33,005 nucleotides of DNA from a virus: the UHGV virus genome UHGV-0323875, one strand, 5' to 3'. Below are positions 907 to 33,005 of this stretch, one piece after another. A program made the position numbers and the translations under genes. The notes below the pieces were generated by a model. It was not told the origin of the DNA. It did no database searches and worked only from the letters and a program-made list of their open reading frames with translations. The number at the start of each line of letters is the position of its first letter. Positions within the stretch are counted from its first letter, which is position 1.

Positions 907-1515
907 TATCATTCAATTTTGTAAAATTCAAACCTTGATTTTTGCCCATTCCTTACCACGATCATCATGGTATTTAGCTGTCTGGTTAGGCGATTTATGT
1001 CCCAGAAGTTTTTGGGTGTCGACGCCCTGAGCTTCGTAAAGTCGCTCAGATAAAGATCTTTGTTCATGGAATGTGGCGGGCGAACCTTCACCCCAGTCAA
1101 TGCCTGCTAAATCCCTCGCTTTACTGAAATTCATCGTCAATGTATTGGCTTTTACTTGCGCGCCACGTTCAGCCTGTGAAGTAGTACGAAAAAAATGTAC
1201 AAGGTATGGGCTGACTGCATAGTCACGGCAGCGGGCTACTACATCGCGTAAACTCCAGTTAATTGCATTGAGGCGAAGGGAAAGCGGGATGGCGATTTTG
1301 CTCCCGGTTTTTTCTTGGATGACGTGAAGATGATCATCCCAAATATCGCTAAATTTCATACGTGAGATATCACCTAACCGTTGGCCGGTAACCAGTGCTA
1401 ACAGCATGGCATTCCCCATATAACGATGGCGGGCATCTGCGATATCAAAGATTTTTTGCCATTCTTCAAGACTTAACCGTTGTCGGGTAATTTTTCTTCT
1501 GGGTTGTTTGGTTGC

Positions 1516-1552
1516 CAGTGCTGGATTATAGCCCGGAGGTACTTCCCCATAG
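1516..1552. repeat. Left arm of a 37 bp inverted repeat (1 mismatch) bounding the inverted int segment
   Basis: The reverse complement of 1516..1552 equals 1843..1879 except for one A/C difference; encodes GEVPPGYNPA on the minus strand. Confidence 0.85.
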
Positions 1553-1842
1553 GACAGGATCGCAACCAGCAAAGGAAAAGCAATCACAACGTCAACCTGG
1601 TTAGATCGCTATCAAGCAATCCAGGATGACAGACTGGAAAGTGGCGATATAAAGCTAAACACCTATAAACAGAAAGCCAAACCAGTATCCTTGCTCAGGG
1701 AACGAGCAGGAATGAAATTAATTTCATCAGTTGATGTAAGGGATATAGCACAATTACTTGACGAGTATATCACTGCCGGGCAACCGAGGATGGCGCAAGT
1801 AGTCCGCTCCGTTCTAATTGATGTATTCAAGGAGGCACAACA

Positions 1843-1879
1843 CTATGGGGAAGTCCCTCCGGGCTATAATCCAGCACTG
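1843..1879. repeat. Right arm of the 37 bp inverted repeat in int
   Basis: CTATGGGGAAGTCCCTCCGGGCTATAATCCAGCACTG; encodes GEVPPGYNPA on the plus strand. Confidence 0.85.
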
Positions 1880-2054
1880 CCGGGTTCTTTGCTCAGCCAG
1901 GCGTGAATTTGCCTCAGTGGCAATAGCAATGGCTTCAGCTTCGTTTGTGCCTAAAGAATGAAACTTCCCGGTCACTGGATGTTTATATCGCCAATAGACT
2001 TTATTTACTTTTCTACTATAAAGCGGATACAAGTTCGGGACTGAAACATTATTT

Positions 2055-2300
2055 TTACGTGGTCTGGCTGCCATTACTTAAAATCCTTTGTAGAATAATA
2101 GAATCATTTTTCTTGATGACAGGAGTAACTAATTCCCCAACTAACTCTGCGTCCTCACGCACTCGCCATAGTCGACCTTGTTTCATTGCCGGTGGACAAA
2201 ATAAATTCTGCTTAGCATAACGACGCAATGTGGACACGCTTGGAGGATTACTTCTGTATTTTTCCGCAGCCCATTCCTCAAGTGTCAGCATTTGAAGCAT
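2055..2300 (-). CDS. xis: Excisionase (lambda Xis-like)
   Basis: LTLEEWAAEKYRSNPPSVSTLRRYAKQNLFCPPAMKQGRLWRV parallels the lambda Xis N-terminus; overlaps the int start as in lambda; start chosen at the internal ATG with a GAGG RBS (ORF track extends to 2315). Confidence 0.7.
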   Translation of the reverse strand: MLQMLTLEEWAAEKYRSNPPSVSTLRRYAKQNLFCPPAMKQGRLWRVREDAELVGELVTPVIKKNDSIILQRILSNGSQTT

Positions 2301-2343
2301 TTTTGATAACCTCATTTCTTTTGCTACAAAACTATTTCACTAG

Positions 2344-2892
2344 TTAATTTCGCTGTCTGGATTGTTTATGCATCTTATGCAGCTCTTTAAAGCGTTCCAT
2401 AAACATCCCGTAGGCATGGCCCGGTGCCAGTGGAATCACGTTGAACATCTCTGTTGCCGGGATGCCTTCCAGTACAGGCCAGAAAGAGCCATCATCAAGC
2501 CCGAGATCGCGGCGTTCGGTTGCCAGCATGATGAGATCGGCATATTTCACGGGCGTACTCATAACCGGGGGTAACCCGTATTTCTCACGGATTACGGCGT
2601 CTATTTTTTCTTCCATCTGTTTATAGTCAGGAAGAAGGCGTTTCAGTGGAGCGGGGATGTCCTGGCAATACACTTCTGTTGCATCATGCATTAACGCTTC
2701 AAAAGCAAATTCCTGCGGTACCAGTTGGCTGCAAAGAACCGCATGTTGGGCGACGCTGTAGAAGTGTGAAAGATGTCCTGCAAAGCGACAGATATTTGAA
2801 AGGGAAAACGCGATATCGTTAATAACGATATCGTCTTTATTTATCCTGTCATAATAAAAATGCTTCCCAGAAAAAGTTTTAATAAATGACAT
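2344..2892 (-). CDS. HD-domain phosphohydrolase (YfbR/YfdR-like 5'-deoxynucleotidase family)
   Basis: H..H and HD motifs (FAGHLSHFYSVAQHAV...ALMHDATEVYCQDIPAPLK) align with the YfbR HD domain; start MSFIKTF with a GGAGAA RBS. Confidence 0.6.
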   Translation of the reverse strand: MSFIKTFSGKHFYYDRINKDDIVINDIAFSLSNICRFAGHLSHFYSVAQHAVLCSQLVPQEFAFEALMHDATEVYCQDIPAPLKRLLPDYKQMEEKIDAVIREKYGLPPVMSTPVKYADLIMLATERRDLGLDDGSFWPVLEGIPATEMFNVIPLAPGHAYGMFMERFKELHKMHKQSRQRN

Positions 2893-3020
2893 TTTGTTCT
2901 CCACGTTATTTGCGCTGCACCGCACTGAATTCTGGTAAAAGGAAGCCCTCACCATCCGGCGATTATTGAGTTAATTACGTTTCCATAAATGCCCCCGCAG
3001 GGGCATTTGCAGTAATCAAA

Positions 3021-3845
3021 TCAGGCGGTGAAAGTACCAATAAAGGTTTCTACTTTGCTGTCTTTGAATTTCTCAACAAGCAGATCGCGAAATTCGTTAG
3101 CCATTTCTTCCTGCACCGCCTCCAGCTGAATAATGCGCAGAACAAGTACAGGACGATCGCCAGTGATAATGCTGAGGCGTAATTTAAAAGAACGTTCTTT
3201 CAGACCTTCAAACGGAACGCATTTAAATTCAAATGCCACTGGCATAATGTCTTTGGTCTTCGCTTCGACAGACTCCATCAGGGAGCGTTTGCCGCTGAAG
3301 TCATTGTCTTCAAAATCAGCAGTCTGGTTCGCTTCAATTGTGATTTTACGGATCGCCGCAGCCGCTTTGGTTGCCTGAATGGCGTCACCATTAGCATCAA
3401 AGCCCACAAGGTTGTCGGCCCAGTCTTCAATCCATTCTGCCAGTGATTTCTGGGAGTTACGCTCGCCGTGAACAGACAACAGAGCAGAGAACGGTGCTGT
3501 CTTTTTCAGTTTGAGAGTGGCGGTGTTATCTGCGTGGCCTGGTTCATCAATAGTACCCAGGTTAAGCACACTGACGGCACGCATATTATCAGCATCGATA
3601 AAGCAGCGGGTGCCTTCATCTGCAAGATCTTTAGAATAACGGGTAAAGTCATCAATGCTGGCAGTGGAAAGCGCACCACGGAAACGGAAGCGATTTAAAT
3701 TAAATTTTTCCAGGTCATGAATGCGGAAATTCTCAGGCAATGCCACAGCATCGGCACCAATCTTACTGATAATTTCATTAACACCCTGAGCAGAAATAAG
3801 GGCATGGATTTGATTAATTGCGGTTGCGTCTAAGTTCTGAGACAT
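3021..3845 (-). CDS. Hypothetical prophage protein, 274 aa (YfdQ/DUF2303-like)
   Basis: Long ORF with ordinary composition; size and position match the YfdQ family of KplE1-type prophages (from memory, not searched). Confidence 0.5.
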
Positions 3846-3910
3846 AATAAGTCCTCACTATATAAAGATATTCAGTGATGAGATAAATAATCAGTTAATT
3901 AAAAACGATA

Positions 3911-4273
3911 TTAACGACCTGCTGCGCGGAGTTTTCCGTCAGGTTCACCGGCAAGAGTCAGTAACTGTCCCTGGTCTTCCTGCAGAATAGTCAGGCGACC
4001 ACCGCGATTGACATACATCGGCGTTTCGGTGGTGTCTTCTTCGGAAATTTTCCCGCGGTTAGTCGGGCGAACATATGAGAGTTTGTGTTTGATTTTCACA
4101 CGGTTCTCATCAAATGGTTCGATTTCCAGGTTGAGTGAGACCTTACCTTTGGTTTTCGTGTTCATCACACCGGAAGCGACTTCACTGAGAACTGCGCCGA
4201 TTTTGGTTTCAAATACGCCGCCGTCCAGCTCCCCGATAAATGCCTGCACATCAGTACTGCGTTCGCTAGCCAT
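3911..4273 (-). CDS. Hypothetical prophage protein, 120 aa (YfdP-like)
   Basis: Start MASERSTD preceded by a GAGGAG RBS; the upstream extension to 4591 in the ORF track is GC-rich non-coding-looking sequence. Confidence 0.5.
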   Translation of the reverse strand: MASERSTDVQAFIGELDGGVFETKIGAVLSEVASGVMNTKTKGKVSLNLEIEPFDENRVKIKHKLSYVRPTNRGKISEEDTTETPMYVNRGGRLTILQEDQGQLLTLAGEPDGKLRAAGR

Positions 4274-4710
4274 TTTGCTGCTCCTCATCATATCGACCCT
4301 GCAAGGCCGATTAGTTTCTCCACAAAACAGAGAAGAACACCTGCGGTGGCAGCCGCCCGGATGGATTGGGTTATGAGCCCGTCGTCCGGTGATGCTCTTC
4401 TCTGTTTTGTAAAAAGGACGGTACCAGCCGGAAGCAAGGGTACAAACTGGTACCGCCAGGACTACACACAGCATAAAGTTGTGGTGCCGGGTGCCTCCCG
4501 GTGCCTGGCGAAGGTTGCACACCAGACGGGTGGGTATCCACAGAAGGTCGACTGTCAGCCTCAACCTTAACCCGCGTGCGCTGAGCCGCATTCACCACAA
4601 CGCTAAGGATTCTCTCTGGTTGAAAATACTTAGCTGTTATGTGCCTGTCTTTTCACCACTTCAGGCTCGGTGGTATCCTTTTAAGCCCGTATACATAAAA
4701 GGAAAATCAA

Positions 4711-8155: not shown

Positions 8156-8646
8156 TCATGAGTCTTTTGAATGACGTTCAGAAATTCATTGAAGCCCATC
8201 CGGGCTGTTCTTCCGGAGACATTGCGGATGCTTTTGCAGGTTACTCACGGCTGCGCGTTCTGCAGTCAGCAAGCAAGTTACGTCAGAGTGGGCGTGTGGC
8301 TCACCGTTGTGAAGGAGATACACGCAGACATTTCCCGCGCCTGACTGAGAGAGCGCAGGAGCCGGAACCACAACCAGTTCGTGAAACCAGACCTGTGCGC
8401 AATTTCTATGTCGGCACTAACGATCCCCGGGTGATTTTGTGCCTGACCCGCCAGGCTGAAGAACTGGAGTCCAGGGGCTTATACCGTCGTGCTGCAACGG
8501 TGTGGATGGCGGCATTCCGTGAAAGCCACTCCCAGCCAGAACGAAACAATTTTCTGGCGCGTCGTGAGCAGTGCTTACAGAAAAGCAGCAAGCGCGCTGC
8601 ATCGGGTGAAGAGTGGTATCTGTCAGGGAATTACGTGGGGGCGTAA
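8152..8646 (+). CDS. Hypothetical protein, 164 aa (possible PerC/YfdN-like regulator)
   Basis: Start and stop overlap the neighbouring genes; C-terminal LYRRAATVWMAAFRES segment resembles PerC/ANR-type helices (weak, from memory). Confidence 0.45.
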   Translation: MIMSLLNDVQKFIEAHPGCSSGDIADAFAGYSRLRVLQSASKLRQSGRVAHRCEGDTRRHFPRLTERAQEPEPQPVRETRPVRNFYVGTNDPRVILCLTRQAEELESRGLYRRAATVWMAAFRESHSQPERNNFLARREQCLQKSSKRAASGEEWYLSGNYVGA

Positions 8647-8972
8647 TGACGACGTTAACTCAATGCCAGCATCAGGTGCTGGATATGCTGATTTCTTACC
8701 AGAAAGAGCGTGGCTTTCCGCCAACCAATCAGGAGGTGGCAACCATGCTGGGATACCGTTCAGTGAATGCAGCGGTAGAGCATCTTCGTGCACTGGAGAA
8801 AAAAGGCGTCATCACGATAAAGCGTGGCGTGGCCCGGGGGATCACGCTTCATACCACAGTGAAGGACGACGACAGCGAGGCAGCCGGGATTATCCGCGCA
8901 CTGCTTGCCGGTGAGGAAAACGCCAGACTGCGTGCAGCCCACTGGTTACATGAGAGGGGCCTGAAAGTATGA
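8646..8972 (+). CDS. LexA-like DNA-binding-domain protein with no S24 peptidase domain
   Basis: LTQCQHQVLDMLISYQKERGFPPTNQEVATMLGYRSVNAAVEHLRALEKKGVITIKRGVARGITL parallels the E. coli LexA N-terminal winged HTH nearly residue for residue; the protein ends after about 108 aa. Confidence 0.7.
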   Translation: MTTLTQCQHQVLDMLISYQKERGFPPTNQEVATMLGYRSVNAAVEHLRALEKKGVITIKRGVARGITLHTTVKDDDSEAAGIIRALLAGEENARLRAAHWLHERGLKV

Positions 8973-15433: not shown

Positions 15434-15559
15434 GAATTAATGTCATCATCAGCCTGGGGAGGGGGAGGTCAAATCTCTGCGACCGCGCGCCTTCCGGACC
15501 GCCCGCCCCATCGTTTTTTTATACCCGCGAAAAATGAAATTTAACCAGGAGTGCCGCAT

Positions 15560-16054
15560 ATGGCTGGAACGGCGGGGCGTTCCGGGCGTCGCCCCAAGCC
15601 AACGGCGCGCAAGGCGCTGGCCGGAAATCCCGGCAAGCGAGCCCTGAACAAAGATGAACCTGTTTTTACGCCCATCAAAGGTGTTGAGCCACCGGAGTGG
15701 TTCGCTGAAGAAGATCTCCCTCTCGCCACGATCATGTGGCAACTGACAACCAAAGAACTCTGCGGTCAGGGCCTGCTGTGCGTGACTGACCTCGCGGTGC
15801 TTGAGCGGTGGTGCGTGGCCTACGAGTTCTGGCGACGTGCCGTGAAAAATATTGCCAGACAGGGCAACACCATCACCGGTGCAATGGGCGGTATGGTCAA
15901 AAATCCTGAGCTGACCGCCAAAAAAGAACAGGAGTCCGAGATGAGCAGTACGGGGGCAATGCTCGGACTCGACCCCAGCAGCCGCCAGCGTCTGATTGGC
16001 CTGGCGGGGCAGAAGAAAGCCACTAACCCGTTTCTGAAAATTATCGAATCATGA
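15560..16054 (+). CDS. Terminase small subunit (P27 family)
   Basis: N-terminus [14 protein letters not shown]...[10 protein letters not shown] typical of P27-family TerS; AGGAG RBS. Confidence 0.75.
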
Positions 16055-17784
16055 GCCGGAAATCTTACCCCAACGTAAATGCTGCCAATCAGTATGCCCG
16101 GGATGTCGTGCGCGGAAAGATTGTGGCCTGCCAGTTTGTGATTCAGGCCTGCCAGCGCCATCTTGATGACCTGATGGCGGAAAAAAGTAAGTCGTTTCGT
16201 TACCGCTTCGACAAGGATCTGGCTGAACGGGCCGCCAAATTTATTCAGCTGTTGCCGCACACCAAGGGTGAGTGGGCATTTAAACGGATGCCCATCACGC
16301 TGGAGCCGTGGCAGCTCTTTGTGATCTGCTGCGCGTTTGGCTGGGTCAATAAAGGCTCCCGGCTGCGCCGCTTCCGGGAGGTGTATACCGAAATCCCCCG
16401 TAAGAACGGCAAATCGGCAATCTCTGCCGGTGTTGCCCTGTATTGTTTTGCCTGTGATAACGAGTTTGGCGCGGAAGTGTATTCCGGTGCCACGACAGAG
16501 AAACAGGCGTGGGAAGTCTTTCGCCCGGCGCGACTGATGTGTAAACGCACACCCATGCTGACGGAAGCGTTCGGGATTGAGGTTAACGCCTCAAACATGA
16601 ACCGTCCGGAGGATGGGGCGCGGTTTGAACCGCTGATTGGTAACCCCGGTGATGGTTCATCACCCCACTGTGCGGTGGTGGATGAATATCACGAGCACGC
16701 CACAGATGCGCTTTACACCACGATGCTTACCGGGATGGGGGCGCGACGTCAGCCACTGATGTGGGCCATTACCACCGCCGGGTACAACATTGAGGGGCCG
16801 TGCTACGACAAACGGCGGGAAGTCATCGAGATGCTCAACGGCTCGGTGCCCAACGATGAACTGTTCGGGATCATCTATACCGTTGACGAAGGCGACGACT
16901 GGACCGACCCGCAGGTACTTGAAAAAGCTAACCCGAATATCGGTGTGTCGGTTTATCGCGAGTTTTTGTTAAGCCAGCAGCAACGTGCGAAAAATAACGC
17001 CCGTCTGGCAAACGTCTTTAAAACAAAACACCTCAATATCTGGGTGTCGGCGCGTTCGGCGTATTTCAACCTGGTGAGCTGGCAGAGCTGCGAGGATAAA
17101 TCACTGACTCTTGAGCAGTTCGAGGGGCAGCCGTGCATTCTGGCCTTTGACCTGGCGCGTAAGCTGGATATGAACAGCATGGCGCGACTTTATACCCGCG
17201 AGATTGACGGTAAAACGCATTACTACAGTGTGGCCCCGCGTTTCTGGGTACCGTATGACACGGTGTACAGCGTCGAGAAAAATGAAGATCGCCGGACAGC
17301 CGAACGCTTTCAGAAATGGGTGGAAATGGGCGTCCTGACCGTTACCGATGGTGCAGAGGTGGATTATCGCTACATCCTCGAAGAGGCCAAAGCGGCGAAC
17401 AAAATCAGCCCGGTCAGCGAGTCACCCATCGACCCCTTCGGGGCGACCGGGCTGTCACATGACCTTGCTGATGAAGACCTGAACCCCATCACCATCATTC
17501 AGAACTACACCAACATGTCCGATCCGATGAAAGAGCTGGAAGCGGCAATTGAATCGGGGCGCTTTCATCATGATGGCAATCCCATCATGACCTGGTGTAT
17601 CGGCAACGTGGTCGGCAAAACTATTCCGGGTAACGATGATGTGGTGAAGCCCGTCAAAGAGCAGGCGGAAAACAAAATTGACGGTGCAGTTGCGCTGATT
17701 ATGGCGGTTGGCAGAGCCATGCTGTATGAGAAAGAAGACACGCTGTCTGACCACATTGAGTCCTACGGGATCCGCTCGCTTTAA
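16051..17784 (+). CDS. Terminase large subunit (HK97-like)
   Basis: 577 aa; P-loop-like PRKNGKS; immediately downstream of TerS. Confidence 0.8.
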
Positions 17785-17795
17785 CTGAGGTAATT

Positions 17796-17978
17796 ATGAT
17801 CATGCTGATTCTCGCGCCTCTGGTGGGCGTGCTGGGGGCGCTTTTGCTGGCGTATGGTGCCTGGCTGATTTATCCCCCGGCGGGGTTTGTTGTTGCCGGG
17901 GCGTTGTGTCTGTTCTGGTCGTGGCTGGTGGCGCGATATCTCGACCGTACACAGCTGTCTGTCGGCGGAGGTAAATAG
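17796..17978 (+). CDS. Small hydrophobic protein, 60 aa
   Basis: Two predicted transmembrane helices; between terL and the portal gene. Confidence 0.35.
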
Positions 17979-19219
17979 TGTTCTTTTCGGGATTATTTCA
18001 ACGAAAAAGTGACGCGCCGGTGACCACCCCAGCAGAGCTGGCGGATGCTATAGGGCTGTCATATGACACCTATACCGGAAAGCAGATCAGCAGCCAGCGG
18101 GCCATGCGACTGACGGCGGTTTTTTCCTGCGTCAGGGTGCTGGCAGAGTCGGTCGGGATGTTGCCCTGCAATCTGTATCACCTGAACGGCAGCCTGAAAC
18201 AGAGAGCCACCGGCGAACGTCTGCATAAGCTGATCTCCACGCATCCCAATAGCTATATGACGCCGCAGGAGTTCTGGGAGCTGGTGGTCACCTGTCTGTG
18301 CCTGCGGGGAAACTTTTACGCCTACAAAGTGAAAGCATTTGGCGAAGTGGCTGAACTGCTGCCCGTCGATCCTGGCTGTGTGGTACCGAAGCTTAACAGT
18401 AGCTGGGAGCCGGTCTATCAGGTCACATTCCCGGACGGCTCCACGGATGTGCTGACCCAGGAGGATATCTGGCATGTGCGCACGCTGACGCTGGACGGTC
18501 TGGTGGGGCTGAATCCCATCGCCTATGCCCGCGAGGCAATATCGCTGGCAGCTGCGACCGAAGAGCACGGGGCCAGACTGTTCAGCAATGGTGCGGTGAC
18601 GTCGGGTGTGTTGCGTACAGAGCAGACGCTGTCAGATCAGGCTTACGAGCGCCTGAAGAAAGATTTTGAGGAGCGTCACACCGGGCTTGGTAATGCTCAC
18701 CGCCCGATGATCCTTGAGATGGGGCTGGACTGGAAGTCGATGGCGCTGAACGCCGAGGACAGCCAGTTCCTGGAAACCCGCAAGTTTCAGCTTGAAGAAA
18801 TTTGTCGTCTGTTCCGTGTGCCATTGCACATGGTGCAGAACACCGATCGCGCCACCTTCAACAATATCGAAGAGCTGGGGCTCGGATTTATCAACTATTC
18901 ACTGGTGCCGTATCTGACCCGCATTGAGCAGCGGATCAACACCGGACTGGTACGAAAAAGTAAGCAGGGTGTTTATTACGCCAAATTTAACGCCGGGGCG
19001 TTACTGCGCGGGGATATGAAGTCCCGTTTTGAAGCCTACGCCACCGGGATTAACTGGGGAATTTACTCTCCCAATGACTGCCGCGACCTGGAAGATATGA
19101 ATCCGCGTCCCGGTGGTGATGTCTATCTCACACCGATGAACATGACCACGAAACCCTCCGATGGCAGTAAAGCCGGTAAGCAGAAGGATAACGCCAATGC
19201 AGACGAAACAACGTCTTGA
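17978..19219 (+). CDS. Portal protein (HK97 family)
   Basis: 413 aa; position between terminase and prohead protease. Confidence 0.75.
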   Translation: MFFSGLFQRKSDAPVTTPAELADAIGLSYDTYTGKQISSQRAMRLTAVFSCVRVLAESVGMLPCNLYHLNGSLKQRATGERLHKLISTHPNSYMTPQEFWELVVTCLCLRGNFYAYKVKAFGEVAELLPVDPGCVVPKLNSSWEPVYQVTFPDGSTDVLTQEDIWHVRTLTLDGLVGLNPIAYAREAISLAAATEEHGARLFSNGAVTSGVLRTEQTLSDQAYERLKKDFEERHTGLGNAHRPMILEMGLDWKSMALNAEDSQFLETRKFQLEEICRLFRVPLHMVQNTDRATFNNIEELGLGFINYSLVPYLTRIEQRINTGLVRKSKQGVYYAKFNAGALLRGDMKSRFEAYATGINWGIYSPNDCRDLEDMNPRPGGDVYLTPMNMTTKPSDGSKAGKQKDNANADETTS

Positions 19220-19847
19220 TGTACCGCTGAGTCTGAAATCTGTCAGTGACTCCGGTGAGTTTGAAGGATATGGCTCCGTCTTTGGTGTAAAGGACAGTCA
19301 CGATGATGTGGTGATGTCCGGGGCATTTGCTGCGTCCCTGCGGGCGTGGAGTGACAGAAAAGCGTTACCTGCGCTGCTCTGGCAGCACCGCATGGATGAG
19401 CCCATCGGTGTTTACACCGAAATGAAGGAAGACGATGTCGGGCTTTACGTCAGAGGGCGGTTGCTCATTGATGATGATCCCCTGGCAAAACGCGCACATG
19501 CACACATGAAGGCCGGTTCGTTAACCGGCCTTTCTATTGGGTACGTCCTGAAGGACTGGGAATACGACCGGACGAAAGAAGCCTTTCTGCTGAAAGAAAT
19601 CGACCTCTGGGAAGTCAGTCTGGTGACGTTTCCGTCTAACGACGAGGCGCGGATCAGCGACGTCAAGAACGCACTGGCCCGCGGGGAAATCCCCGAACAG
19701 AAAAAAATCGAAAGAGTCCTGCGTGATGTCGGACTCTCCCGTACCCAGGCCAAAGCATTCATGGCCGGGGGCTATGGCGCACTGTCCCTGCGCGACGCTG
19801 AGGATGTGGGCTCTGCACTGAATGCACTGAAAAATCTGAACTTCTAA
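19197..19847 (+). CDS. Prohead maturation protease (HK97 family)
   Basis: Follows the portal gene; AAGGA RBS; size about 216 aa. Confidence 0.7.
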   Translation: MQTKQRLDVPLSLKSVSDSGEFEGYGSVFGVKDSHDDVVMSGAFAASLRAWSDRKALPALLWQHRMDEPIGVYTEMKEDDVGLYVRGRLLIDDDPLAKRAHAHMKAGSLTGLSIGYVLKDWEYDRTKEAFLLKEIDLWEVSLVTFPSNDEARISDVKNALARGEIPEQKKIERVLRDVGLSRTQAKAFMAGGYGALSLRDAEDVGSALNALKNLNF

Positions 19848-19861
19848 TCAGGAGAAATACG

Positions 19862-21067
19862 ATGGCGGTTGATATTAAAGATGTCGAACAGGTCGCGCAG
19901 GAGCTGCAGCAGAAGTTTGACGACTTCAAAGCAAAGAACGACAAGCGCGTGGATGCGATTGAGCAGGAAAAAGGCAAACTTGCCGGGCAGGTGGAAACCC
20001 TGAACGGGAAACTCAGCGAGCTGGAAAACCTCAAAAGCGATCTTGAAAAAGAGCTGCTTGAGCTGAAACGTCCGGCAGGTGGTGCGCAAAATAAACTGGC
20101 CACCGAGCATAAAGAAGCGTTTGTGGGCTTCCTGCGTAAAGGCCGTGAAGATGGCCTGCGCGATCTGGAGCGCAAGGCATTACAGGTGGGCACCGATGAA
20201 GACGGCGGCTATGCCGTGCCGGAAGCACTGGATCGCAACATTCTCACCCTGCTGAAAGATGAAGTGGTGATGCGCCAGGAAGCCACGGTGATCACCGTTG
20301 GTGGTTCCGACTACAAAAAACTGGTGAATCTGGGCGGCACGGCTTCCGGATGGGTTGGCGAGACTGACGCGCGCTCCCAGACTGCCACCTCAAAACTGGG
20401 CCTGATTGAACCTTTCATGGGGGAAATCTACGGTAACCCGCAGGCCACCCAGAAAATGCTGGATGATGCCTTTTTCAACGTGGAAGCATGGATCAACAGC
20501 GAGCTGGCAACCGAATTTGCCGAACAGGAAGAAATTGCCTTTACCACCGGCGATGGTACCAAGAAGCCGAAAGGGTTCCTGGCGTATGAATCCACTGATG
20601 AAACCGATAAGGTCCGGGCGTTCGGCAAACTTCAGCATATTGTATCCGGCGAAGCGACGGGGGTGACCGCAGACGCCATTATCAAACTGATTTACACGCT
20701 GCGAAAGGCACACCGCACTGGCGCGAAGTTCATGATGAACAACAACAGCCTGTTTGCCATCCGTCTGCTTAAAGACAGCGAGGGTAACTATCTGTGGCGT
20801 CCGGGGCTGGAACTGGGACAGCCGTCCTCTCTGGCGGGTTACGGTATCGCTGAAAACGAACAGATGCCGGATATCGCCGCTGATGCGAAAGCCATTGCAT
20901 TTGGTAACTTCAAACGGGGTTACACCATCGTTGACCGTATCGGCACCCGCATTCTGCGTGACCCGTACACCAATAAACCGTTTGTCGGTTTTTATACCAC
21001 CAAGCGCACCGGCGGGATGCTGGTCGATTCGCAGGCCATCAAACTGCTGAAGATTGCAGCGGCGTAA
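19862..21067 (+). CDS. Major capsid protein (HK97 fold) with an N-terminal coiled-coil delta domain
   Basis: 401 aa; N-terminal coiled coil followed by a capsid-like body; followed by a stem-loop. Confidence 0.8.
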   Translation: MAVDIKDVEQVAQELQQKFDDFKAKNDKRVDAIEQEKGKLAGQVETLNGKLSELENLKSDLEKELLELKRPAGGAQNKLATEHKEAFVGFLRKGREDGLRDLERKALQVGTDEDGGYAVPEALDRNILTLLKDEVVMRQEATVITVGGSDYKKLVNLGGTASGWVGETDARSQTATSKLGLIEPFMGEIYGNPQATQKMLDDAFFNVEAWINSELATEFAEQEEIAFTTGDGTKKPKGFLAYESTDETDKVRAFGKLQHIVSGEATGVTADAIIKLIYTLRKAHRTGAKFMMNNNSLFAIRLLKDSEGNYLWRPGLELGQPSSLAGYGIAENEQMPDIAADAKAIAFGNFKRGYTIVDRIGTRILRDPYTNKPFVGFYTTKRTGGMLVDSQAIKLLKIAAA

Positions 21068-21074
21068 TCACTCA

Positions 21075-21094
21075 GGGGCGCGGAACCGCGCCCC
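21075..21094 (+). other. GC-rich stem-loop (GGGGCGCG-GAAC-CGCGCCCC) immediately after the capsid gene; possible attenuator or RNA-stability element
   Basis: Perfect 8 bp stem; no strong T-tract. Confidence 0.45.
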
Positions 21095-21116
21095 CTGTTC
21101 TGACGGGTGAAGAATC

Positions 21117-21317
21117 ATGATCCTGAAACAAGATCTGAAATGGTCACCGGACGGTATGCGTGTTGAGGTCATTCAGGCCGGTGAGTATGACGACGGGGCG
21201 CTTCCTGCCCGGGTGCAGGAGATTGCACTTCAGGCCGGGTTAGCAGAGCGCGGAATCAGTGCAAAAAGCAGTAAAGCGGCAAAAGAGAAAAAAGCCACGA
21301 CCAGTAAAGAGGGATGA
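21117..21317 (+). CDS. Small hypothetical head-module protein
   Basis: 66 aa ORF between the capsid and connector genes. Confidence 0.35.
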   Translation: MILKQDLKWSPDGMRVEVIQAGEYDDGALPARVQEIALQAGLAERGISAKSSKAAKEKKATTSKEG

Positions 21318-21643
21318 GTATGCTTCTGACAATGGAAGAGATTAAAGCCCAACTCCGGCTGGATGAGGATTTCGATACTGATGACCGCCATCTGCAACTG
21401 CTGGCATGTGCGGCACAAAAGCGGACGGAAACGTATCTGAACCGGAAGCTCTATGCACCGGATGAAACCATTCCGGACAGCGATCCGGACGGGCTGCACC
21501 TGCCGGATGATATTCGTCTGGGGATGCTGATGCTTATCAGCCATTTTTACGAAAACCGCTCGTCGGTTACGGAAGTGGAGAAACTCGACATGCCGCAGAG
21601 TTTTGGCTGGCTTGTCGGCCCGTACAGGTACTTTCCTCAATGA
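21314..21643 (+). CDS. Head-tail connector protein (gp6-like)
   Basis: About 109 aa; conserved position after the capsid gene. Confidence 0.5.
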   Translation: MSMLLTMEEIKAQLRLDEDFDTDDRHLQLLACAAQKRTETYLNRKLYAPDETIPDSDPDGLHLPDDIRLGMLMLISHFYENRSSVTEVEKLDMPQSFGWLVGPYRYFPQ

Positions 21644-22050
21644 AAATTCGTCAGGCGCAGACCAGCGCAACCTACATTCTGCCGGACCCCGGTGAACTGA
21701 ATAAACGCGTCCTGATCCGCCTGCGGGTGGATATGCCCGCGGATAACTTTGGCGTGGAGCCTCAATACCCGGTTACGTTCCGGACATGGGCGAAGGTTAT
21801 CCAGACCAGTGCCACCACCTGGCAGGAAACCGCGCAGACCGGGGACGCCATCACCCATTACATCACCATTCGTTACCGCCGGGGGATCACCGCTGATTAT
21901 GAGGTGGTCTGCGGTGACAGTGTGTACCGGGTGAAACGTCAGCGCGATCTGAACGGGGCGCGGCGCTTTCTGCTGCTGGAGTGTACGGAGCTGGGCGAAT
22001 GTAGGCAGAGTCACGGAGGCAACAATGACGACTTCCTTTTTACACGTTGA
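21640..22050 (+). CDS. Head closure / head-tail joining protein
   Basis: Position and size. Confidence 0.45.
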   Translation: MKIRQAQTSATYILPDPGELNKRVLIRLRVDMPADNFGVEPQYPVTFRTWAKVIQTSATTWQETAQTGDAITHYITIRYRRGITADYEVVCGDSVYRVKRQRDLNGARRFLLLECTELGECRQSHGGNNDDFLFTR

Positions 22051-22531
22051 TTTTCAGCAGCCCGCGGAGATGCGCTTTAACCGCGCCCGTGTCCGGCGGG
22101 CGTTTGTCACGATTGGTCAGCGTCATATGCGTGATGCCCGTCGGCTGGTGATGCGCCGTGCGCGGTCGGCACCGGGTGAAAACCCCGGTTATCAGACCGG
22201 ACGCCTGGCTCGTTCGATTGGTTACATGGTGCCGAGAGCCAGTAAAAAGCGAGCCGGTTTTATGACACGCATTGCCCCTAACCAGCGCAACGGGAAGGGG
22301 AACCGGATGATCTCTGGTGACTTCTATCCGGCGTTTCTGTTTTTTGGTGTCCGGGGAGGAGCAAAACGTCGTCGTAGTCATCATCGTGGTGCATCCGGTG
22401 GCAGCGGCTGGCGACTGGCTCCACGTAATAACTTCATGGTGGAAACGCTTGAAAAGAACCGCAGCTGGACACGCTATTTTCTGGCGCGGGAATTGCGTAA
22501 ATCACTGAAGCCGGAGCGACGACACAGATGA
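22025..22531 (+). CDS. HK97 gp10-like tail-attachment protein (putative)
   Basis: Basic protein of about 168 aa in the conserved position. Confidence 0.4.
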   Translation: MTTSFLHVDFQQPAEMRFNRARVRRAFVTIGQRHMRDARRLVMRRARSAPGENPGYQTGRLARSIGYMVPRASKKRAGFMTRIAPNQRNGKGNRMISGDFYPAFLFFGVRGGAKRRRSHHRGASGGSGWRLAPRNNFMVETLEKNRSWTRYFLARELRKSLKPERRHR

Positions 22532-23088
22532 AACTGACGCCTGTTATTGCTGCACTGCGTGCCCGCTGTCCGTATTTTGAAAACCGGGTGGCAGGCGCGG
22601 CCCAGTTCAAAAATCTGCCGGAGGTCGGAAAGCTGAGACTCCCGGCGGCGTATGTGGTACCGGGTGATGACTCTCCGGGAGAAAACAAAAGCCAGACCGA
22701 CTACTGGCAGGAGCTGAAAGAGGGCTTCTCCGTGGTTGTCATACTGAGTAACGGGCGTGATGAGCGCGGTCAGTTTGCCTCGTATGATGTGGTGGACGAT
22801 GTCCGGCAGATGCTCTTTAAGGCTCTGCTGGGCTGGAACCCGGAGGCGTGCGGTAACCCGATTACCTATGACGGCGGCACGCTGCTGGATCTGAATCGTC
22901 ATGAGCTGATTTATCAGTTCGATTTTTCGGTCATCAGCGAGCTGACTGAAGACGATACCCGCCAGCAGGATGATCTGAACAGTCTGGATGAACTGCAAAC
23001 GCTGGCGATTGATGTTGATTATCTCGAGCCCGGTAACGGGCCTGACGGCGATATCGAACATCACACCGAAATAACCCTTCCTTCCTGA
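22528..23088 (+). CDS. Tail terminator / virion morphogenesis protein (putative)
   Basis: Position just before the sheath gene. Confidence 0.4.
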   Translation: MKLTPVIAALRARCPYFENRVAGAAQFKNLPEVGKLRLPAAYVVPGDDSPGENKSQTDYWQELKEGFSVVVILSNGRDERGQFASYDVVDDVRQMLFKALLGWNPEACGNPITYDGGTLLDLNRHELIYQFDFSVISELTEDDTRQQDDLNSLDELQTLAIDVDYLEPGNGPDGDIEHHTEITLPS

Positions 23089-23096
23089 GGATCCTC

Positions 23097-23267
23097 ATGT
23101 TTGTCAAACCTGTTAAAGGGCGGTCAGTTCCTGACCCTGCCCGCGGCGACCTTTTGCCCGCCGAAGGGCGAAATGTTGACGAGAACAACTACTGGCTGCG
23201 CCGTGAAGCAGCGGGTGATATCCGGCGCGTGAATAAAAAGGTGAATACCGATGACGATAAGCTTTAA
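23097..23267 (+). CDS. Small conserved tail-module protein (DUF2635-like), 56 aa
   Basis: ATG at 23097 with a GAGGA RBS; MFVKPVKGRSVPDPARGDLLPAEGRNVDENNYW; below the ORF-track cut-off. Confidence 0.45.
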   Translation: MFVKPVKGRSVPDPARGDLLPAEGRNVDENNYWLRREAAGDIRRVNKKVNTDDDKL

Positions 23268-24747
23268 CACCATTCCGTCGAATACGCTGGTTCCGTTGTT
23301 TTATGCGGAAATGGATAACCAGGCGGCGAATACTGCACAGGACAGCGGAGCATCGCTGCTGATTGGTCATGCCAATAACGGTGCAGAGATTGTTGCCAAC
23401 AGTCTGGTACTGATGCCGTCGGCAGACTATGCACGCCAGATTTGTGGTGCGGGAAGTCAGCTGGCGCGTATGGTCGAGGCTTATCGCCAGACTGACCCGT
23501 TTGGCGAGCTGTATGTGATTGCCGTTCCTGAATCCACAGGCGCGGCGGCAACGGTTACGCTGACGGTGACCGGGGCGGCAACCGAAACCGGCACGGTGAA
23601 TGTGTATGTGGGACGTACCCGCGTGCAGGCACCGGTGACTAACGGCGATAACGTCACGATGATTGCCAGCAGTATCCAGGATGCCATCAATGCCGTTCCG
23701 GCCCTGCCGTTTACGGCTTCATCTTCGGCAGGCGTGGTTACACTGACCGCGCGTCATAAGGGGCTTTGCGGGAATGAAATTCCTGTCAGCCTCAATTACT
23801 ACGGCTTTGGTGGGGGCGAAGTGCTGCCAGCGGGCGTACAGATTGCCGTGGCGACGGGTACCGCCGGAACGGGTGCTCCGGTTCTCACCGGCGCGGTGGC
23901 TGCAATGGCGGATGAGCCGTTTGATTATATCGGCCTGCCGTTCAACGACACGGCCTCCGTTAACACGCTGGTGACCGAGATGAACGATACCAGCGGTCGC
24001 TGGAGCTATGCGCGTCAGCTGTATGGTCATGTGTATACGGCAAAGATCGGCACGCTGTCAGAACTGGTGACCGCAGGTGACCAGTTTAACCAGCAGCACA
24101 TTACCCTGGCGGGGTACGAAAAAGACACCCAGACGCCTGCCGACGAGCTGGCGGCAAGCCGTACCGCCCGCGCAGCGGTGTTTATCCGCAACGATCCGGC
24201 ACGTCCCACGCAGACCGGTGAGCTGGTGGGTATGCTGCCTGCGCCGAAGGGGAAACGGTTCACGATGACCGAACAACAGACCCTGCTGTCTCATGGCGTG
24301 GCAACGGCGTATGTCGAAAGCGGGGTACTGCGCATTCAGCGTGATGTCACCACGTACAGGAAAAACGCTTACGGGGTTGCGGATAACAGCTACCTCGACA
24401 GCGAGACGCTGCATAGCAGTGCGTATGTACTGCGCAAACTGAAATCCGTCATTACCAGTAAGTACGGGCGTCACAAGCTTGCCAGCGACGGTACCCGCTT
24501 TGGTCCCGGTCAGGCGATTGTCACCCCGGCGGTGATCAAAGGGGAACTGCTGGCAACCTACCGTCAGCTTGAGCGTGCGGGGATCGTGGAAAACTACGAA
24601 CTGTTTAAGCAGTACCTGGTTGTGGAGCGTGATGCCAGCGATCCGAACCGCCTGAACACGCTGTTCCCGCCTGACTATGTTAACCAGTTGCGTGTCTTTG
24701 CCGTGGTTAACCAGTTCCGTCTTCAGTATTCAGAGGAGTCTGCATAA
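23251..24747 (+). CDS. Tail sheath protein (Mu gpL-like)
   Basis: 498 aa; followed by tube, chaperone and tape-measure genes. Confidence 0.75.
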   Translation: MTISFNTIPSNTLVPLFYAEMDNQAANTAQDSGASLLIGHANNGAEIVANSLVLMPSADYARQICGAGSQLARMVEAYRQTDPFGELYVIAVPESTGAAATVTLTVTGAATETGTVNVYVGRTRVQAPVTNGDNVTMIASSIQDAINAVPALPFTASSSAGVVTLTARHKGLCGNEIPVSLNYYGFGGGEVLPAGVQIAVATGTAGTGAPVLTGAVAAMADEPFDYIGLPFNDTASVNTLVTEMNDTSGRWSYARQLYGHVYTAKIGTLSELVTAGDQFNQQHITLAGYEKDTQTPADELAASRTARAAVFIRNDPARPTQTGELVGMLPAPKGKRFTMTEQQTLLSHGVATAYVESGVLRIQRDVTTYRKNAYGVADNSYLDSETLHSSAYVLRKLKSVITSKYGRHKLASDGTRFGPGQAIVTPAVIKGELLATYRQLERAGIVENYELFKQYLVVERDASDPNRLNTLFPPDYVNQLRVFAVVNQFRLQYSEESA

Positions 24748-25372: not shown

Positions 25373-25513
25373 CGGCTGAATACCTCACTGATCGCTTCTT
25401 TGACTGCGCCAGCTACTGGCGCATTAATCCCTTCGAATTGCTGAATATGCCGATCAGTGAAATTCCCTTGCTGGTCAGTCAGGCAAACAGGATAGAGCAG
25501 GAGAAACGCACAC

Positions 25514-27349: not shown

Positions 27350-27410
27350 TGAAAAATTAATCTGTTAATGAGTCCCACTCCGGTGGGATTTTTTATGTAC
27401 GGAGTTTATA

Positions 27411-28759
27411 TGACGTGGAAAGACAGACTTCAGGACGCGTCATTTCGCGGTGTGCCGTTTAAGGTTGAAGAAGAAAGTACGGGAACCGGTCGTCGTGTGG
27501 AAACGCACGAATACCCGAACCGCGACAAACCCTATACCGAAGACCTGGGGAAAATCACTTTCCGCCCGTCCATCACGGCTTATGTGGTGGGAGATGACTG
27601 CTTTGACCAGCGCGATCGCCTGATTGACGCGCTGAATAAACCCGGTCCCGGCACGCTTGTCCATCCGACTTACGGTGAGCTGAAAGTCTGTGTTGACGGA
27701 GAGGTTCGGGTCAGCACATCGAAGAGTGAAGGGCGTATTGTCCGCTTTGACCTGAAGTTTGTCGAAGCGGGAGAACTCTCTTACCCCACTTCAGGTGCGG
27801 CGACGGCGCAGACGCTGATGTCATCCTGTTCTGCACTGGATGACTGCATCAGTGACAGCTTCAGCGGTTTCAGTATCGATGGCGTGGCGGATTTCGTGCA
27901 GAACGACGTTATTGGTAATGCCAGCATAATGCTGGGGTATGTTTCTGATGCGATGAAAGTGGTGGATTCTGCCGTATCGGATGCCGCCAGGCTGTTGCAG
28001 GGGGATATCTCGGTACTTCTGCCGCCGCCATCGTCAGGCAAAAATTTCGTTGAGCAGGTGCAGAAAATGTGGCGTACCGGGAAACGCCTTTATGGTAACG
28101 CCAGCGATCTGGTCACCATGATCAAAACGCTTTCCGGTGTCAGCCTCGGCAGTGATCTGCAACCGCGCGGCGTCTGGAAAACGGACAGTAAAATCCGCAT
28201 TCAGATCTGCTTTCACCCGGCGCAGCGCCAGAAACAGCGCATCACTGGTTGTACGGGACAACTCCTTATCAATTGCCGTATTCAGTGTGTCGCGAATGTC
28301 AGTCAGTTCTTCCCACGTCGGCAGATCAACCGTGTTTTTCATCGCCGGTGCATTGTTCAGTGCCGGATGCGTGACGGAAGGCCAGCCGGTGCTCTGTGCA
28401 GCTGTTGTTGCCTGCCCCACTGCGGCATTCTGCATCACCGCGGAAGTTGTTGGCGCAGGCAATCGGGTGACGGCATACGCCGCTTCGCTGATTGCGGTCG
28501 TACGAAGGGTGCTGGCAACCACGTTACGCTGCTGCGTCGCCGTAGCGGTGGTTTTACTGTCCGTTTTCCAGACGCCAACACGCGCCTTGAACAGTCTGCA
28601 CGGATCATTCAGCGCACACCGGATGAGGTTTTACCCGCGCTGGTGCTGGCGGCGACCTGGTTTGATAACGCGACGCGTGACGCGGACATTATCCGGCGTA
28701 ATGCCATTACGCATCCCGGCTTTGTGCCGGTGATCCCTCTGAAGGTGCCAGTGCAATGA
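27411..28759 (+). CDS. DNA circulation protein (Mu gpN/gp43-like); carries an internal 358 bp segment in inverted orientation but remains one open frame
   Basis: N-terminus MTWKDRLQDASFRGVPFKVEEESTGTGRRVETHEYPNR; residues encoded by 28194..28551 are Cys/Arg-rich junk on the plus strand while the minus strand reads TTATATQQRNVVASTLRTT...KADLNAD. Confidence 0.65.
28169..28193. repeat. Left arm of a perfect 25 bp inverted repeat (GGCGTCTGGAAAACGGACAGTAAAA) inside the DNA circulation gene
   Basis: Exact reverse complement of 28552..28576. Confidence 0.9.
28552..28576. repeat. Right arm of the perfect 25 bp inverted repeat (TTTTACTGTCCGTTTTCCAGACGCC)
   Basis: Exact reverse complement of 28169..28193. 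Confidence 0.9.
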
Positions 28760-32428: not shown

Positions 32429-32431
32429 TCC

Positions 32432-33005
32432 ATGCATCGTATAGACACGAAAACCGCGCAGAAGGATAAGTTCGGCGCGGGTAAGAACGGTTTTACCCGT
32501 GGTAACCCCCAGACCGGCACACCTGCCACCGATCTGGATGATGACTACTTTGACATGTTGCAGGAGGAACTTTGCAGTGTTGTGGAGGCATCCGGTGCCA
32601 GCCTAGAGAAGGGGCGGCATGACCAGCTGCTTACAGCGCTTCGTGCGCTGCTGTTAAGCCGCAAGAATCCGTTTGGCGATATCAAATCGGATGGCACGGT
32701 GAAAACGGCTCTCGAAAACCTTGGTTTGGGAGAAGCGGCAAAACGAAATGTGGGAACAGGGGAAAATCAGATACCTGATATGTCATCATATGCATCAGGT
32801 TCAGGCTGGCGAAAAATGCCAGATGGTTCAATTGAACAGTGGGGACGAATTAGTTTTCCTGGTGATTACTTCGTCTATATCAACACCTTTTTCTTCAGGC
32901 CATTCACCTTTTTCAACATAAAGAGACTGAAGTTCGTAAGGATATGCCAGGTTGTTTACGTACAGATATTTCATCATTACCAGCCCTTAGCGAAAAACGC
33001 ACCAC
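32432..33005 (+). CDS. Side tail fibre protein, N-terminal part (StfP/StfE-like); the reading frame becomes antisense junk after about residue 143
   Basis: [48 protein letters not shown] is a conserved tail-fibre N-terminus; a [14 protein letters not shown] motif follows; downstream [17 protein letters not shown] is F-rich and antisense to a minus-strand gene start. Confidence 0.6.
32828..32977 (-). CDS. Tail-fibre-assembly-like gene start ([37 protein letters not shown]), apparently truncated after about 38 codons
   Basis: ATG with an AAGGG RBS and an in-frame upstream stop; the N-terminal pattern (AYPYEL...G.WPEE) resembles Tfa proteins; the remainder is antisense of the tail-fibre gene. 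Confidence 0.4.

What the first reader, a model, noticed from the sequence alone, without database searches (positions are those of the whole stretch)
1516..1879. Integrase gene scrambled by an inversion bounded by 37 bp inverted repeats
The int N-terminus (minus strand, 2074..1880) and the catalytic C-terminus (minus strand, 1515..928) are separated by a 290 bp segment whose integrase-coding sense is on the plus strand (TWLDRYQAI...FKEAQHY). It is bounded by 37 bp inverted repeats with one mismatch, each encoding GEVPPGYNPA. Flipping restores mid-to-C-terminal continuity, but the left repeat is a 37 bp addition that leaves the N-terminal junction out of frame, so int is inactive either way. 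The architecture (A, inverted copy of the boundary, inverted segment, boundary, C) mirrors the DNA circulation gene event and resembles template-switch inversions.
Basis: seen in the sequence. Interest (0 to 1): 0.75.

Follow-up and report, generated by a model that had tools for sequence, protein, structure and literature searches.

The report
Integrase gene broken by strand-switch inversion
The middle third of a prophage integrase gene is flipped and flanked by a 37-base duplicated scar, which is the footprint of a DNA-copying error (or an artefact) rather than a genetic switch; it kills the gene and is one of three such lesions found only in this sequence.

Summary
Arms 1516-1552 and 1843-1879 form a 37-nt inverted repeat with one mismatch (chance expectation 3e-12). 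They bound integrase sequence that reads on the wrong strand.

Against intact relatives (375-aa e14-type IntE, lambda family):
- Codons 72-180, the core-binding domain, are reverse-complemented.
- Codons 169-180 are present twice. That duplication is the inverted repeat.
- Codons 66-71 are lost.
- The net change is +19 nt, so int is dead in either orientation.

The repeats are a scar of the event. No relative has a second arm. This is the "3-1-2-4" double strand-switch footprint.

The same footprint, with the same polarity, occurs at 28169-28576 (DNA circularization gene). A third, truncated copy starts at 32865 (tail fibre gene).

Every other base of the window is 100% identical to public E. 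coli prophages, except T1540, which lies 12 nt from a junction. None of the junctions is found in any collection searched.

Junction microhomology (0, 3, 1, 1, 1 nt) is at chance level. That is atypical of known template switching in E. coli and of amplification chimeras.

The origin is unresolved: in-cell copying error, in-vitro artefact or edited sequence. It is a known kind of lesion and of modest interest.

The parts
1880..2074 (-). int N-terminal piece, codons 1-65 (arm-type DNA-binding domain), colinear with intact relatives
   Evidence: Pfam Arm-DNA-bind_1 at 120.7 bits in the 86-aa ORF 1814..2074
1553..1879 (+). inverted piece: reverse complement of ancestral int codons 72-180 (327 nt, essentially the core-binding domain), 100% identical to relatives
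   Evidence: the lambda Int core-binding domain structure 2oxo aligns to residues 83-181
928..1552 (-). int C-terminal piece, codons 169-375 plus stop (catalytic domain; R, K, H-x-x-R, H and Y all present)
   Evidence: Phage_integrase 69.5 bits; alignment to lambda Int 1z1b
1516..1552 (.). left arm of the inverted repeat: the colinear copy of codons 169-180, carrying the private substitution T1540
1843..1879 (.). right arm of the inverted repeat: the extra, inverted copy of codons 169-180, with the ancestral base at the mismatch position
1552..1553 (.). junction 1: ancestral position 2460 (+) joined to 2750 (-) in L002 coordinates; 0 nt microhomology
1877..1880 (.). junction 2: ancestral 2424 (-) joined to 2766/2769 (+); 3 nt microhomology (CTG); ancestral 2751-2765/8 deleted (codons 66-71)
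1540..1540 (.). private G>T substitution (synonymous), 12 nt from junction 1; the only point difference between the window and public relatives
   Evidence: chance of such proximity 0.004
1814..2074 (-). 86-aa ORF left by the event: 65 native residues plus 21 junk residues, with its start overlapping the end of xis
28169..28576 (.). event 2, same architecture and polarity, in the DNA circularization gene: 25-nt perfect inverted repeat (28169-28193 / 28552-28576), 384-nt inverted piece, 2-4 nt lost, net +21 nt, 1 nt overlap at each junction
32865..33005 (.). event 3, truncated by the window end, in the tail-fibre gene: colinear to 32865, then reverse complement of sequence starting 302 nt ahead; 1 nt overlap

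Best explanation
The e14-type integrase gene (intE, lambda-family tyrosine recombinase of a prophage that sits next to icd) was destroyed by a one-off, non-programmed duplication-inversion-deletion. The lesion has the exact footprint of two consecutive strand switches by a DNA-copying process (four-point type '3-1-2-4'). Copying ran along the + strand to window 1552. It then continued on the opposite strand 290 nt ahead and ran back 327 nt. That is 37 nt past the point of departure, which creates the inverted repeat. It then resumed on the original strand 16-19 nt beyond the first landing point, which deletes codons 66-71. The inverted repeats are therefore a scar of the event and not a recombination site. 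The result is a dead int gene: an 86-aa arm-binding fragment may still be made, while the core-binding domain is antisense and the catalytic domain is stranded. The prophage cannot excise with its own integrase. Two more lesions with the same footprint and polarity lie in the same 33 kb, so I infer one burst of strand switching. Shown: the structure, its privacy to this sequence, and the loss of function. Inferred: that a polymerase did it, and where. I lean weakly to an in-cell replication error (about 0.4) over in-vitro amplification (about 0.2).
For: The base-level mapping to intact relatives gives 100% identity of the inverted piece, a 37-nt duplication and a 15-18 nt loss. No relative has a second arm: 0 of 502 complete genomes with a match, and 11 of 11 fetched loci have an intact 375-aa int. 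The ancestral sequence shows no inverted homology at the switch points. The breakpoints do not resemble the Pin crossover site. Events 2 and 3 have the same anatomy and polarity. [quoted passage not shown] It also matches the 'almost but not quite reciprocal' inversions with small duplications or deletions seen in starving E. coli, which were explained by an intra-fork switch (PMC3161906). The only private point mutation in 33 kb lies 12 nt from junction 1 (p = 0.004), as expected of error-prone synthesis at a switch. From memory of the K-12 map, the window's + strand runs with the replication fork at icd/e14, so the polarity fits a leading strand jumping ahead onto the lagging-strand template.
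Against: Junction microhomology is 0, 3, 1, 1, 1 nt, no more than random joins give (null mean 0.68; P(sum>=6) = 0.16). The E. coli template-switch junctions seen in Table 1 of PMC3161906 all have >=2 nt, although the table was only partly read and 1-4 bp is reported for some deletions. Of proximal inverted MDA chimeras, 93.5% have >=2 nt; at that rate, seeing <=1 of 5 has probability 8e-5. No unusual DNA secondary structure is found at the breakpoints (z -0.64 to +1.30), so the stalling trigger proposed in PMC3161906 is not supported. Three events in 33 kb with no other divergence is a rate no whole genome could survive. It is also far above the background: 0 in-place small inversions in 476 kb of relatives. 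The junctions and junction-crossing ORFs are absent from every collection searched. No reads are available.
Confidence: 0.6

Rival explanations
1. The lesions are not biological. The sequence was edited or simulated (for example with a four-point template-switch or 'inverted segment with inverted-repeat boundaries' generator) starting from a public prophage, or otherwise corrupted after sequencing.
For: Apart from the three events and one SNP inside an arm, every base of the window is 100% identical to public assemblies. Junction microhomology is exactly at the random-join expectation. All events share one polarity and narrow parameter ranges: jumps of 290, 359 and 302 nt, arms of 37 and 25 nt, inverted pieces of 327 and 384 nt. 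The junctions and five junction-crossing ORF products are absent from NCBI, ENA, JGI and Logan gene records and from viral, genome and metagenome contig scans. Those same collections hold hundreds of copies of the intact neighbouring genes. The event density is implausible for a viable genome.
Against: The details are not those of a naive edit. Losses are unequal (15-18 nt versus 2-4 nt), one junction has 3-nt microhomology, and the mismatch sits in the native colinear arm rather than in the added copy. Nothing in the sequence proves editing. A non-public isolate would give the same absence from the databases.
Confidence: 0.3
2. Two staggered double-strand breaks about 300 nt apart were followed by fill-in and homology-independent end joining of the flipped fragment. 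This is a breakage-rejoining model with no template switching.
For: Blunt or near-blunt junctions are what end joining gives. A 37-nt 5' stagger that is filled in would duplicate the arm in inverted orientation, and resection at the other break would give the small deletion.
Against: From general knowledge, E. coli lacks Ku/LigD end joining, and its alternative end joining is rare and deletion-prone. The model needs four nicks with specific staggers, three times over, always with the same polarity.
Confidence: 0.05
3. It is a programmed invertible segment (an inverton or shufflon-like switch) flipped by the prophage's Pin invertase or by the integrase itself, with the 37-nt repeats as recombination sites.
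For: Inverted repeats flank an inverted segment of roughly 300 nt, and a Pin-type invertase system operates in the same prophage family.
Against: The second arm is absent from all relatives. The event gained 37 nt and lost 15-18 nt, whereas site-specific inversion is conservative. Neither orientation gives a functional gene. The breakpoints do not resemble the natural Pin crossover site AAACCTTGGTTTGGGAGAAG.
Confidence: 0.02
4. Homologous (RecA-type) recombination between pre-existing inverted repeats inverted the segment.
For: Inversion between inverted repeats is the textbook route to inversion.
Against: The ancestral gene has only one copy of the 37-mer, and there is no inverted homology at the breakpoints beyond chance. 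The repeat is a product of the event.
Confidence: 0.01

Closest known systems
Near-reciprocal non-homologous inversions with small junction duplications or deletions in starving E. coli (Lin, Gibson, ... Hastings 2011, PMC3161906), explained by an intra-fork leading-to-lagging template switch and back
   Same: Same organism. An inversion whose two exchanges are 'almost, but not quite, reciprocal', leaving tens of bp duplicated or deleted at the ends. The dimensions fit within one replication fork. No long homology is involved.
   Different: Their two inversions are 1.5 and 2.4 kb with 2-30 nt junction microhomology and predicted hairpins at the junctions. Here the inverted pieces are 0.33-0.38 kb, microhomology is at chance level and no secondary structure is detected. 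Three events cluster in 33 kb.
Four-point template-switch model, event type '3-1-2-4' / '1-3-4-2' (Loytynoja & Goldman 2017, PMC5453318)
   Same: [quoted passage not shown] A single event explains all differences from the ancestor.
   Different: That work concerns short mutation clusters in primate genomes (its examples have spacers of a few bp). Here the copied fragments are 327-384 nt and lie in a bacterial prophage.
FoSTeS/MMBIR complex rearrangements (Hastings et al. 2009, PMC2621351); 'dupINVdel'-type complex inversions of human structural-variant catalogues (from memory)
   Same: An inversion with a duplication at one breakpoint and a deletion at the other; several switches in one locus; a point mutation next to a junction.
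   Different: MMBIR is defined by microhomology-primed switches, and that feature is not seen here. MMBIR events are usually kb to Mb in scale.
Multiple displacement amplification chimeras (Lasken & Stockwell 2007, PMC1855051)
   Same: Strand-inverting joins between nearby segments at about one per 10-22 kb of product. That is the same order as the 5 junctions in 33 kb seen here.
   Different: 93.5% of proximal inverted MDA junctions have >=2 nt complementarity, against 1 of 5 here. MDA junctions are single switches with intervening deletions, not paired switches that return within 2-19 nt of the landing point. A consensus assembly should not fix three of them.
Programmed DNA inversion systems (Pin/P segment of e14, Gin, Hin, fimS)
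   Same: An inverted segment of a few hundred bp between inverted repeats. A real Pin crossover site lies in the same window (32716-32735).
   Different: Programmed systems are conservative, conserved across genomes, site-specific and functional in both orientations. None of these properties holds for this lesion.
IntE of prophage e14 / lambda Int (tyrosine recombinase with an arm-binding domain)
   Same: The ancestral gene is a full-length member (E = 4.7e-58 to lambda Int 1z1b), annotated intE in RefSeq relatives.
   Different: In the window it is a pseudogene in three pieces.

Membership tests
Lambda-family tyrosine integrase (IntE type) | N-terminal arm-type DNA-binding domain | tested here: met
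   Pfam Arm-DNA-bind_1 at 120.7 bits in the window's 86-aa N-terminal fragment and 125.7 bits in the intact relative
Lambda-family tyrosine integrase (IntE type) | Catalytic domain with R, K, H-x-x-R, H and the Tyr nucleophile | tested here: met
   Phage_integrase at 69.5 bits in ORF 928..1587. The alignment to lambda Int 1z1b shows TGQRLGD, EKTGSK, FHEQRS, LGHKS and AKYHDD opposite the lambda motifs.
Lambda-family tyrosine integrase (IntE type) | One continuous reading frame joining the arm-binding, core-binding and catalytic domains | tested here: not met
   Codons 72-180 lie on the opposite strand and codons 66-71 are deleted, for a net +19 nt. Stop codons follow residue 86 as the sequence stands, and the gene is still frameshifted after a flip. 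It is a pseudogene of this family.
Four-point template-switch event, type 3-1-2-4 | The replaced stretch equals the reverse complement of nearby ancestral sequence | tested here: met
   Window 1553-1879 is the reverse complement of L002 2424-2750 at 100% identity
Four-point template-switch event, type 3-1-2-4 | Switch-point order 3 < 1 < 2 < 4, producing an inverted repeat plus an inverted spacer | tested here: met
   Points are 2424 < 2460 < 2750 < 2769; definition taken from PMC5453318
MMBIR / microhomology-primed template switching | Microhomology (typically >=2 nt) at each switch junction | tested here: not met
   Observed 0, 3, 1, 1, 1 nt. The random-join null has mean 0.68 and P(sum>=6) = 0.16.
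Intra-fork switch model of Lin et al. 2011 | Secondary-structure-forming sequence at the junction sites that stalls synthesis | tested here: not met
   DNA folding of six ancestral breakpoint regions gives z = -0.64 to +1.30 against shuffles
Intra-fork switch model of Lin et al. 2011 | All switch points lie within the dimensions of one fork (about 1.5-2 kb), with near-reciprocal exchanges | tested here: met
   The four points span 345 nt (event 1) and 386 nt (event 2). The ends are offset by 37 and 15-18 nt, and by 25 and 2-4 nt.
Programmed invertible segment (site-specific inversion) | Inverted-repeat sites conserved in related genomes | tested here: not met
   0 of 502 genomes with a match carry the arrangement. 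All 45 genomes with this int allele, and all 11 loci, have a single arm.
Programmed invertible segment (site-specific inversion) | Conservative exchange with no gain or loss of bases, at a recombinase recognition site | tested here: not met
   +37 nt and -15 to -18 nt; no similarity to the Pin crossover site
MDA / strand-displacement amplification chimera | Sample amplified before sequencing; chimeric junctions present in only some of the molecules | not testable with these tools
   No reads or metadata are available. The junction complementarity rule (>=2 nt in 93.5% of proximal inverted chimeras) is met by only 1 of 5 junctions.

The most novel reading that the evidence does not exclude
The three lesions are real and arose in vivo in a single burst. 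One error-prone copying pass through the prophage switched strands at least five times, always with the same polarity and without using microhomology. That would be a small-scale bacterial counterpart of chromoanasynthesis. It might work by a homology-independent joining step (for example a nascent lagging-strand fragment ligated into the leading strand) rather than by annealing-primed template switching. It would have disabled excision (int) and tail assembly in one stroke.
Probability: 0.2. Interest if true: 0.65.

Novelty: new member of a known kind. Interest (0 to 1): 0.3.

Why it matters
If real, it is a clean, base-resolved example of how a prophage becomes grounded. A single replication-type rearrangement removes the integrase's core-binding domain from the reading frame, so the element can no longer excise. 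The cluster of three same-polarity events in DNA that is otherwise identical to public relatives would be a rare natural record of multi-switch copying errors in a bacterium. Their lack of microhomology would challenge the annealing-primed picture of such switches. If it is an artefact or an edit, the value is practical. Inverted repeats bounding an inverted coding segment should not be read as a switch without checking relatives. This sequence should not be used as evidence about integrase or tail-gene evolution.

Tried and rejected
1. I searched for the source or any second carrier, and every search was negative. Exact-product look-ups covered five junction-crossing ORFs of 86, 449, 463, 64 and 219 aa. 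Exact junction strings were scanned in viral, genome and metagenome contigs. Megablast was run against 5,426 complete E. coli genomes and against the phage collection.
2. I tried to reach the int region of the 100%-identical contig GCA_019147615.1 through the repressor protein. That protein is too common (18,358 blocks) and the contig was not returned. The left 4.4 kb was covered by other 100%-identical loci instead.
3. Pre-existing inverted homology at the switch points: none beyond chance.
4. Hairpin-forming sequence at the breakpoints: none.
5. Pin pseudo-sites at the breakpoints: none.
6. A possible extra defect in the large terminase gene, called as 498 aa in one relative: rejected. The window encodes the full 577 aa, so this was only a start-codon call.
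7. Codon alignment of the inverted pieces (109 and 128 whole codons) looked suspicious. Given the junction ambiguity, my hand estimate of the chance is about 0.15, so I draw no inference from it.
8. De Bruijn-graph misassembly: rejected, because the joins share only 0-3 nt, far below any k-mer overlap.

Full report
**What is in the sequence**

The repeat finder reports arms 1516-1552 and 1843-1879: 37 nt, 97% complementary, with 290 nt between them. About 3e-12 such repeats would be expected by chance in 33 kb.

The window is an e14-family prophage of E. coli lying next to icd. Its gene order is int, xisE, yfdR, yfdQ, then a P27-type terminase, Mu-like tail genes and a Pin-invertible tail-fibre region. 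The closest isolated phage in the phage collection is vB_EcoM-689R6, at 94.6% identity, and it has an intact integrase.

**Anatomy relative to intact relatives**

Complete genomes such as E. coli AH01 carry a colinear 375-aa integrase (WP_000741312.1). The base-level mapping is:

| Window | Ancestral sequence (L002) | Strand | Note |
|---|---|---|---|
| 1-1552 | 909-2460 | + | one mismatch, T1540 |
| 1553-1879 | 2750-2424 | reverse complement | 100% identical |
| 1877 onward | 2766 onward | + | |

- Ancestral 2424-2460 (37 nt) is therefore present twice, once colinear and once inverted. That duplication is the inverted repeat.
- Ancestral 2751-2765/8 (15-18 nt) is lost.
- Junction 1 has no microhomology. 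Junction 2 has 3 nt (CTG).
- The net change is +19 nt.

In protein terms:

| Int residues | State in the window | Domain |
|---|---|---|
| 1-65 | in place | arm-binding domain, Pfam 120.7 bits |
| 66-71 (QILAIS) | deleted | - |
| 72-180 | on the opposite strand | essentially the core-binding domain |
| 169-375 | in place | catalytic domain; R, K, H-x-x-R, H and Y all present |

As the sequence stands, the frame stops after 86 aa. If the segment between the arms were flipped, mid-to-C continuity returns but the N-terminal junction stays frameshifted.

**The repeats are a scar, not a site**

- No relative has a second arm. None of the 502 complete genomes with a match has the window's arrangement.
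- Ten fetched loci and AH01 all have an intact 375-aa gene with a single copy of the 37-mer.
- The ancestral sequence has no inverted homology at the switch points beyond chance.
- It has no unusual DNA secondary structure there, with z from -0.64 to +1.30.
- It has no resemblance to the natural Pin crossover site.
- The exchange is not conservative.

These results exclude a programmed inversion and recombination between pre-existing repeats.

**It is not alone**

- **Event 2.** The DNA circularization gene carries the same architecture in the same polarity. The sequence is colinear to 28193 and then reverse-complemented from 359 nt ahead back past the departure point. This leaves a 25-nt perfect inverted repeat (28169-28193 / 28552-28576). 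Copying resumes 2-4 nt beyond the landing point. The net change is +21 nt, with 1 nt of overlap at each junction.
At 32865 the window leaves colinearity with L005 and continues as the reverse complement from 302 nt ahead until the window ends at 33005. All 2,057 genomes with a match stop aligning at exactly that base.
- **Contrast with a natural site.** The natural Pin crossover at 32716-32735 shows the expected 20-nt shared site.
- **No other events.** The window's middle part is colinear with complete genomes.

**How private and how clean**

| Window region | 100%-identical public sequence |
|---|---|
| 4417-24980 (20,564 nt, no differences) | GCA_019147615.1 (L018) |
| 15514-32735, apart from event 2 | L003, L006 |
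| 1880-4500 | L007, L009, L011, L013 |
| 1-1552, apart from T1540 | nine fetched loci (11 of 11 loci carrying the flanking arm sequence have G at 1540) |

- None of the 45 complete genomes with this int allele has T1540.
- The whole window therefore equals public DNA plus three strand-switch events and one substitution 12 nt from a junction. The chance of that proximity is 0.004.
- Junction strings and junction-crossing ORF products are absent from every collection I could search.
- Among 476 kb of aligned natural relatives I found no in-place small inversion.

**Comparison with what is known**

- The switch-point order 3 < 1 < 2 < 4 is type "3-1-2-4" of the four-point template-switch model. 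[quoted passage not shown]
- In E. coli, Lin et al. 2011 found inversions that are "almost, but not quite, reciprocal", with tens of bp duplicated or deleted at the ends. They proposed that a stalled leading strand switches to the lagging-strand template ahead of it, copies backwards, and switches back (PMC3161906). That model fits the geometry here.
- From memory of the K-12 map, the window's + strand runs with the fork at icd/e14, so the polarity also fits.
- Two features do not fit. The predicted hairpins are absent. Junction microhomology (0, 3, 1, 1, 1 nt) is at the level of random joins (null mean 0.68; P(sum>=6) = 0.16). By contrast, the E. coli junctions I saw in Table 1 of PMC3161906 all have >=2 nt.
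- MDA chimeras occur at about one per 10-22 kb and are 85% inverted (PMC1855051). However, 93.5% of proximal inverted ones have >=2 nt complementarity. Seeing at most 1 of 5 under that rate has probability 8e-5.

**Origin**

The structure is certain. Where it was made is not. My estimates:

| Origin | Probability |
|---|---|
| In-cell copying error, probably one burst | about 0.4 |
| In-vitro amplification or assembly artefact | about 0.2 |
| Edited or simulated sequence | about 0.3 |
| Breakage and rejoining (0.05) plus the two refuted readings, programmed switch and repeat recombination | remainder |

- For a biological origin: the natural-looking details (unequal losses, one 3-nt microhomology, a junction-adjacent point mutation in the native arm) and the match to published E. 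coli events.
- Against a biological origin: chance-level microhomology, a density of events no whole genome could tolerate, uniform polarity and parameter ranges, and absence from very large public collections that hold hundreds of copies of the intact neighbouring genes.

**Consequences and verdict**

If real, the prophage has lost its own excision function and probably tail assembly. The circularization protein keeps its N-terminal domain, but 128 codons are replaced by antisense-derived sequence and 7 residues are added net. The tail-fibre gene is also disrupted.

An 86-aa arm-binding fragment, whose start overlaps the end of xis, may still be expressed. Any dominant-negative effect of that fragment is speculation.

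The finding is a private instance of a known kind of lesion and of modest interest. The cluster of three is the more interesting aspect, and it needs reads to be believed.

Noticed in passing
window 28169-28576: A second duplication-inversion-deletion event with the same polarity lies in the DNA circularization gene. It has a 25-nt perfect inverted repeat, a 384-nt inverted piece and a net change of +21 nt. None of the 1,096 complete genomes carrying the gene has it.
   Followed up: yes
window 32865-33005: A third strand-switch junction, not in the finding, lies in the tail-fibre gene 130 nt beyond the natural Pin crossover site. The jump is 302 nt ahead onto the other strand with 1 nt of overlap, and the event is cut off by the window end. 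All 2,057 matching genomes stop aligning at 32865.
   Followed up: yes
window 32716-32735: This is the natural Pin crossover site AAACCTTGGTTTGGGAGAAG. The window has the invertible tail-fibre segment in the orientation of L005, opposite to L003/GCA_019147615.1, which is otherwise 100% identical. This is ordinary phase variation and a useful contrast to the three lesions.
   Followed up: partly
window 27368-28759 (+): The scrambled circularization gene still reads as one open frame of 449-463 aa. The 128 codons read from the antisense of the inverted piece contain no stop codon. A gene caller would annotate an apparently intact but chimeric protein.
   Followed up: partly
window 1553-1879 and 28193-28576: Both inverted pieces are whole numbers of codons (109 and 128) and can be placed codon-aligned in their genes. 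Given the junction ambiguity, my hand estimate of the chance is about 0.15, so this is probably coincidence.
   Followed up: partly
window 1540: This is the only private point substitution in the whole window (G>T, synonymous). It lies in the colinear arm 12 nt from junction 1, while the inverted copy keeps the ancestral base.
   Followed up: yes
window about 8640-8649, versus L002 9538-10179: The window lacks the phage Dam methyltransferase gene that AH01 and several relatives carry at this point, and it has a different lysis and antitermination module at about 12-15.5 kb. This is ordinary lambdoid mosaicism.
   Followed up: no
L001 1157-1366 (outside the window, between icd and the prophage): Relatives carry an integrase pseudogene remnant and cargo genes between icd and this prophage's int. 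This suggests an older element decayed at the same attachment site.
   Followed up: no
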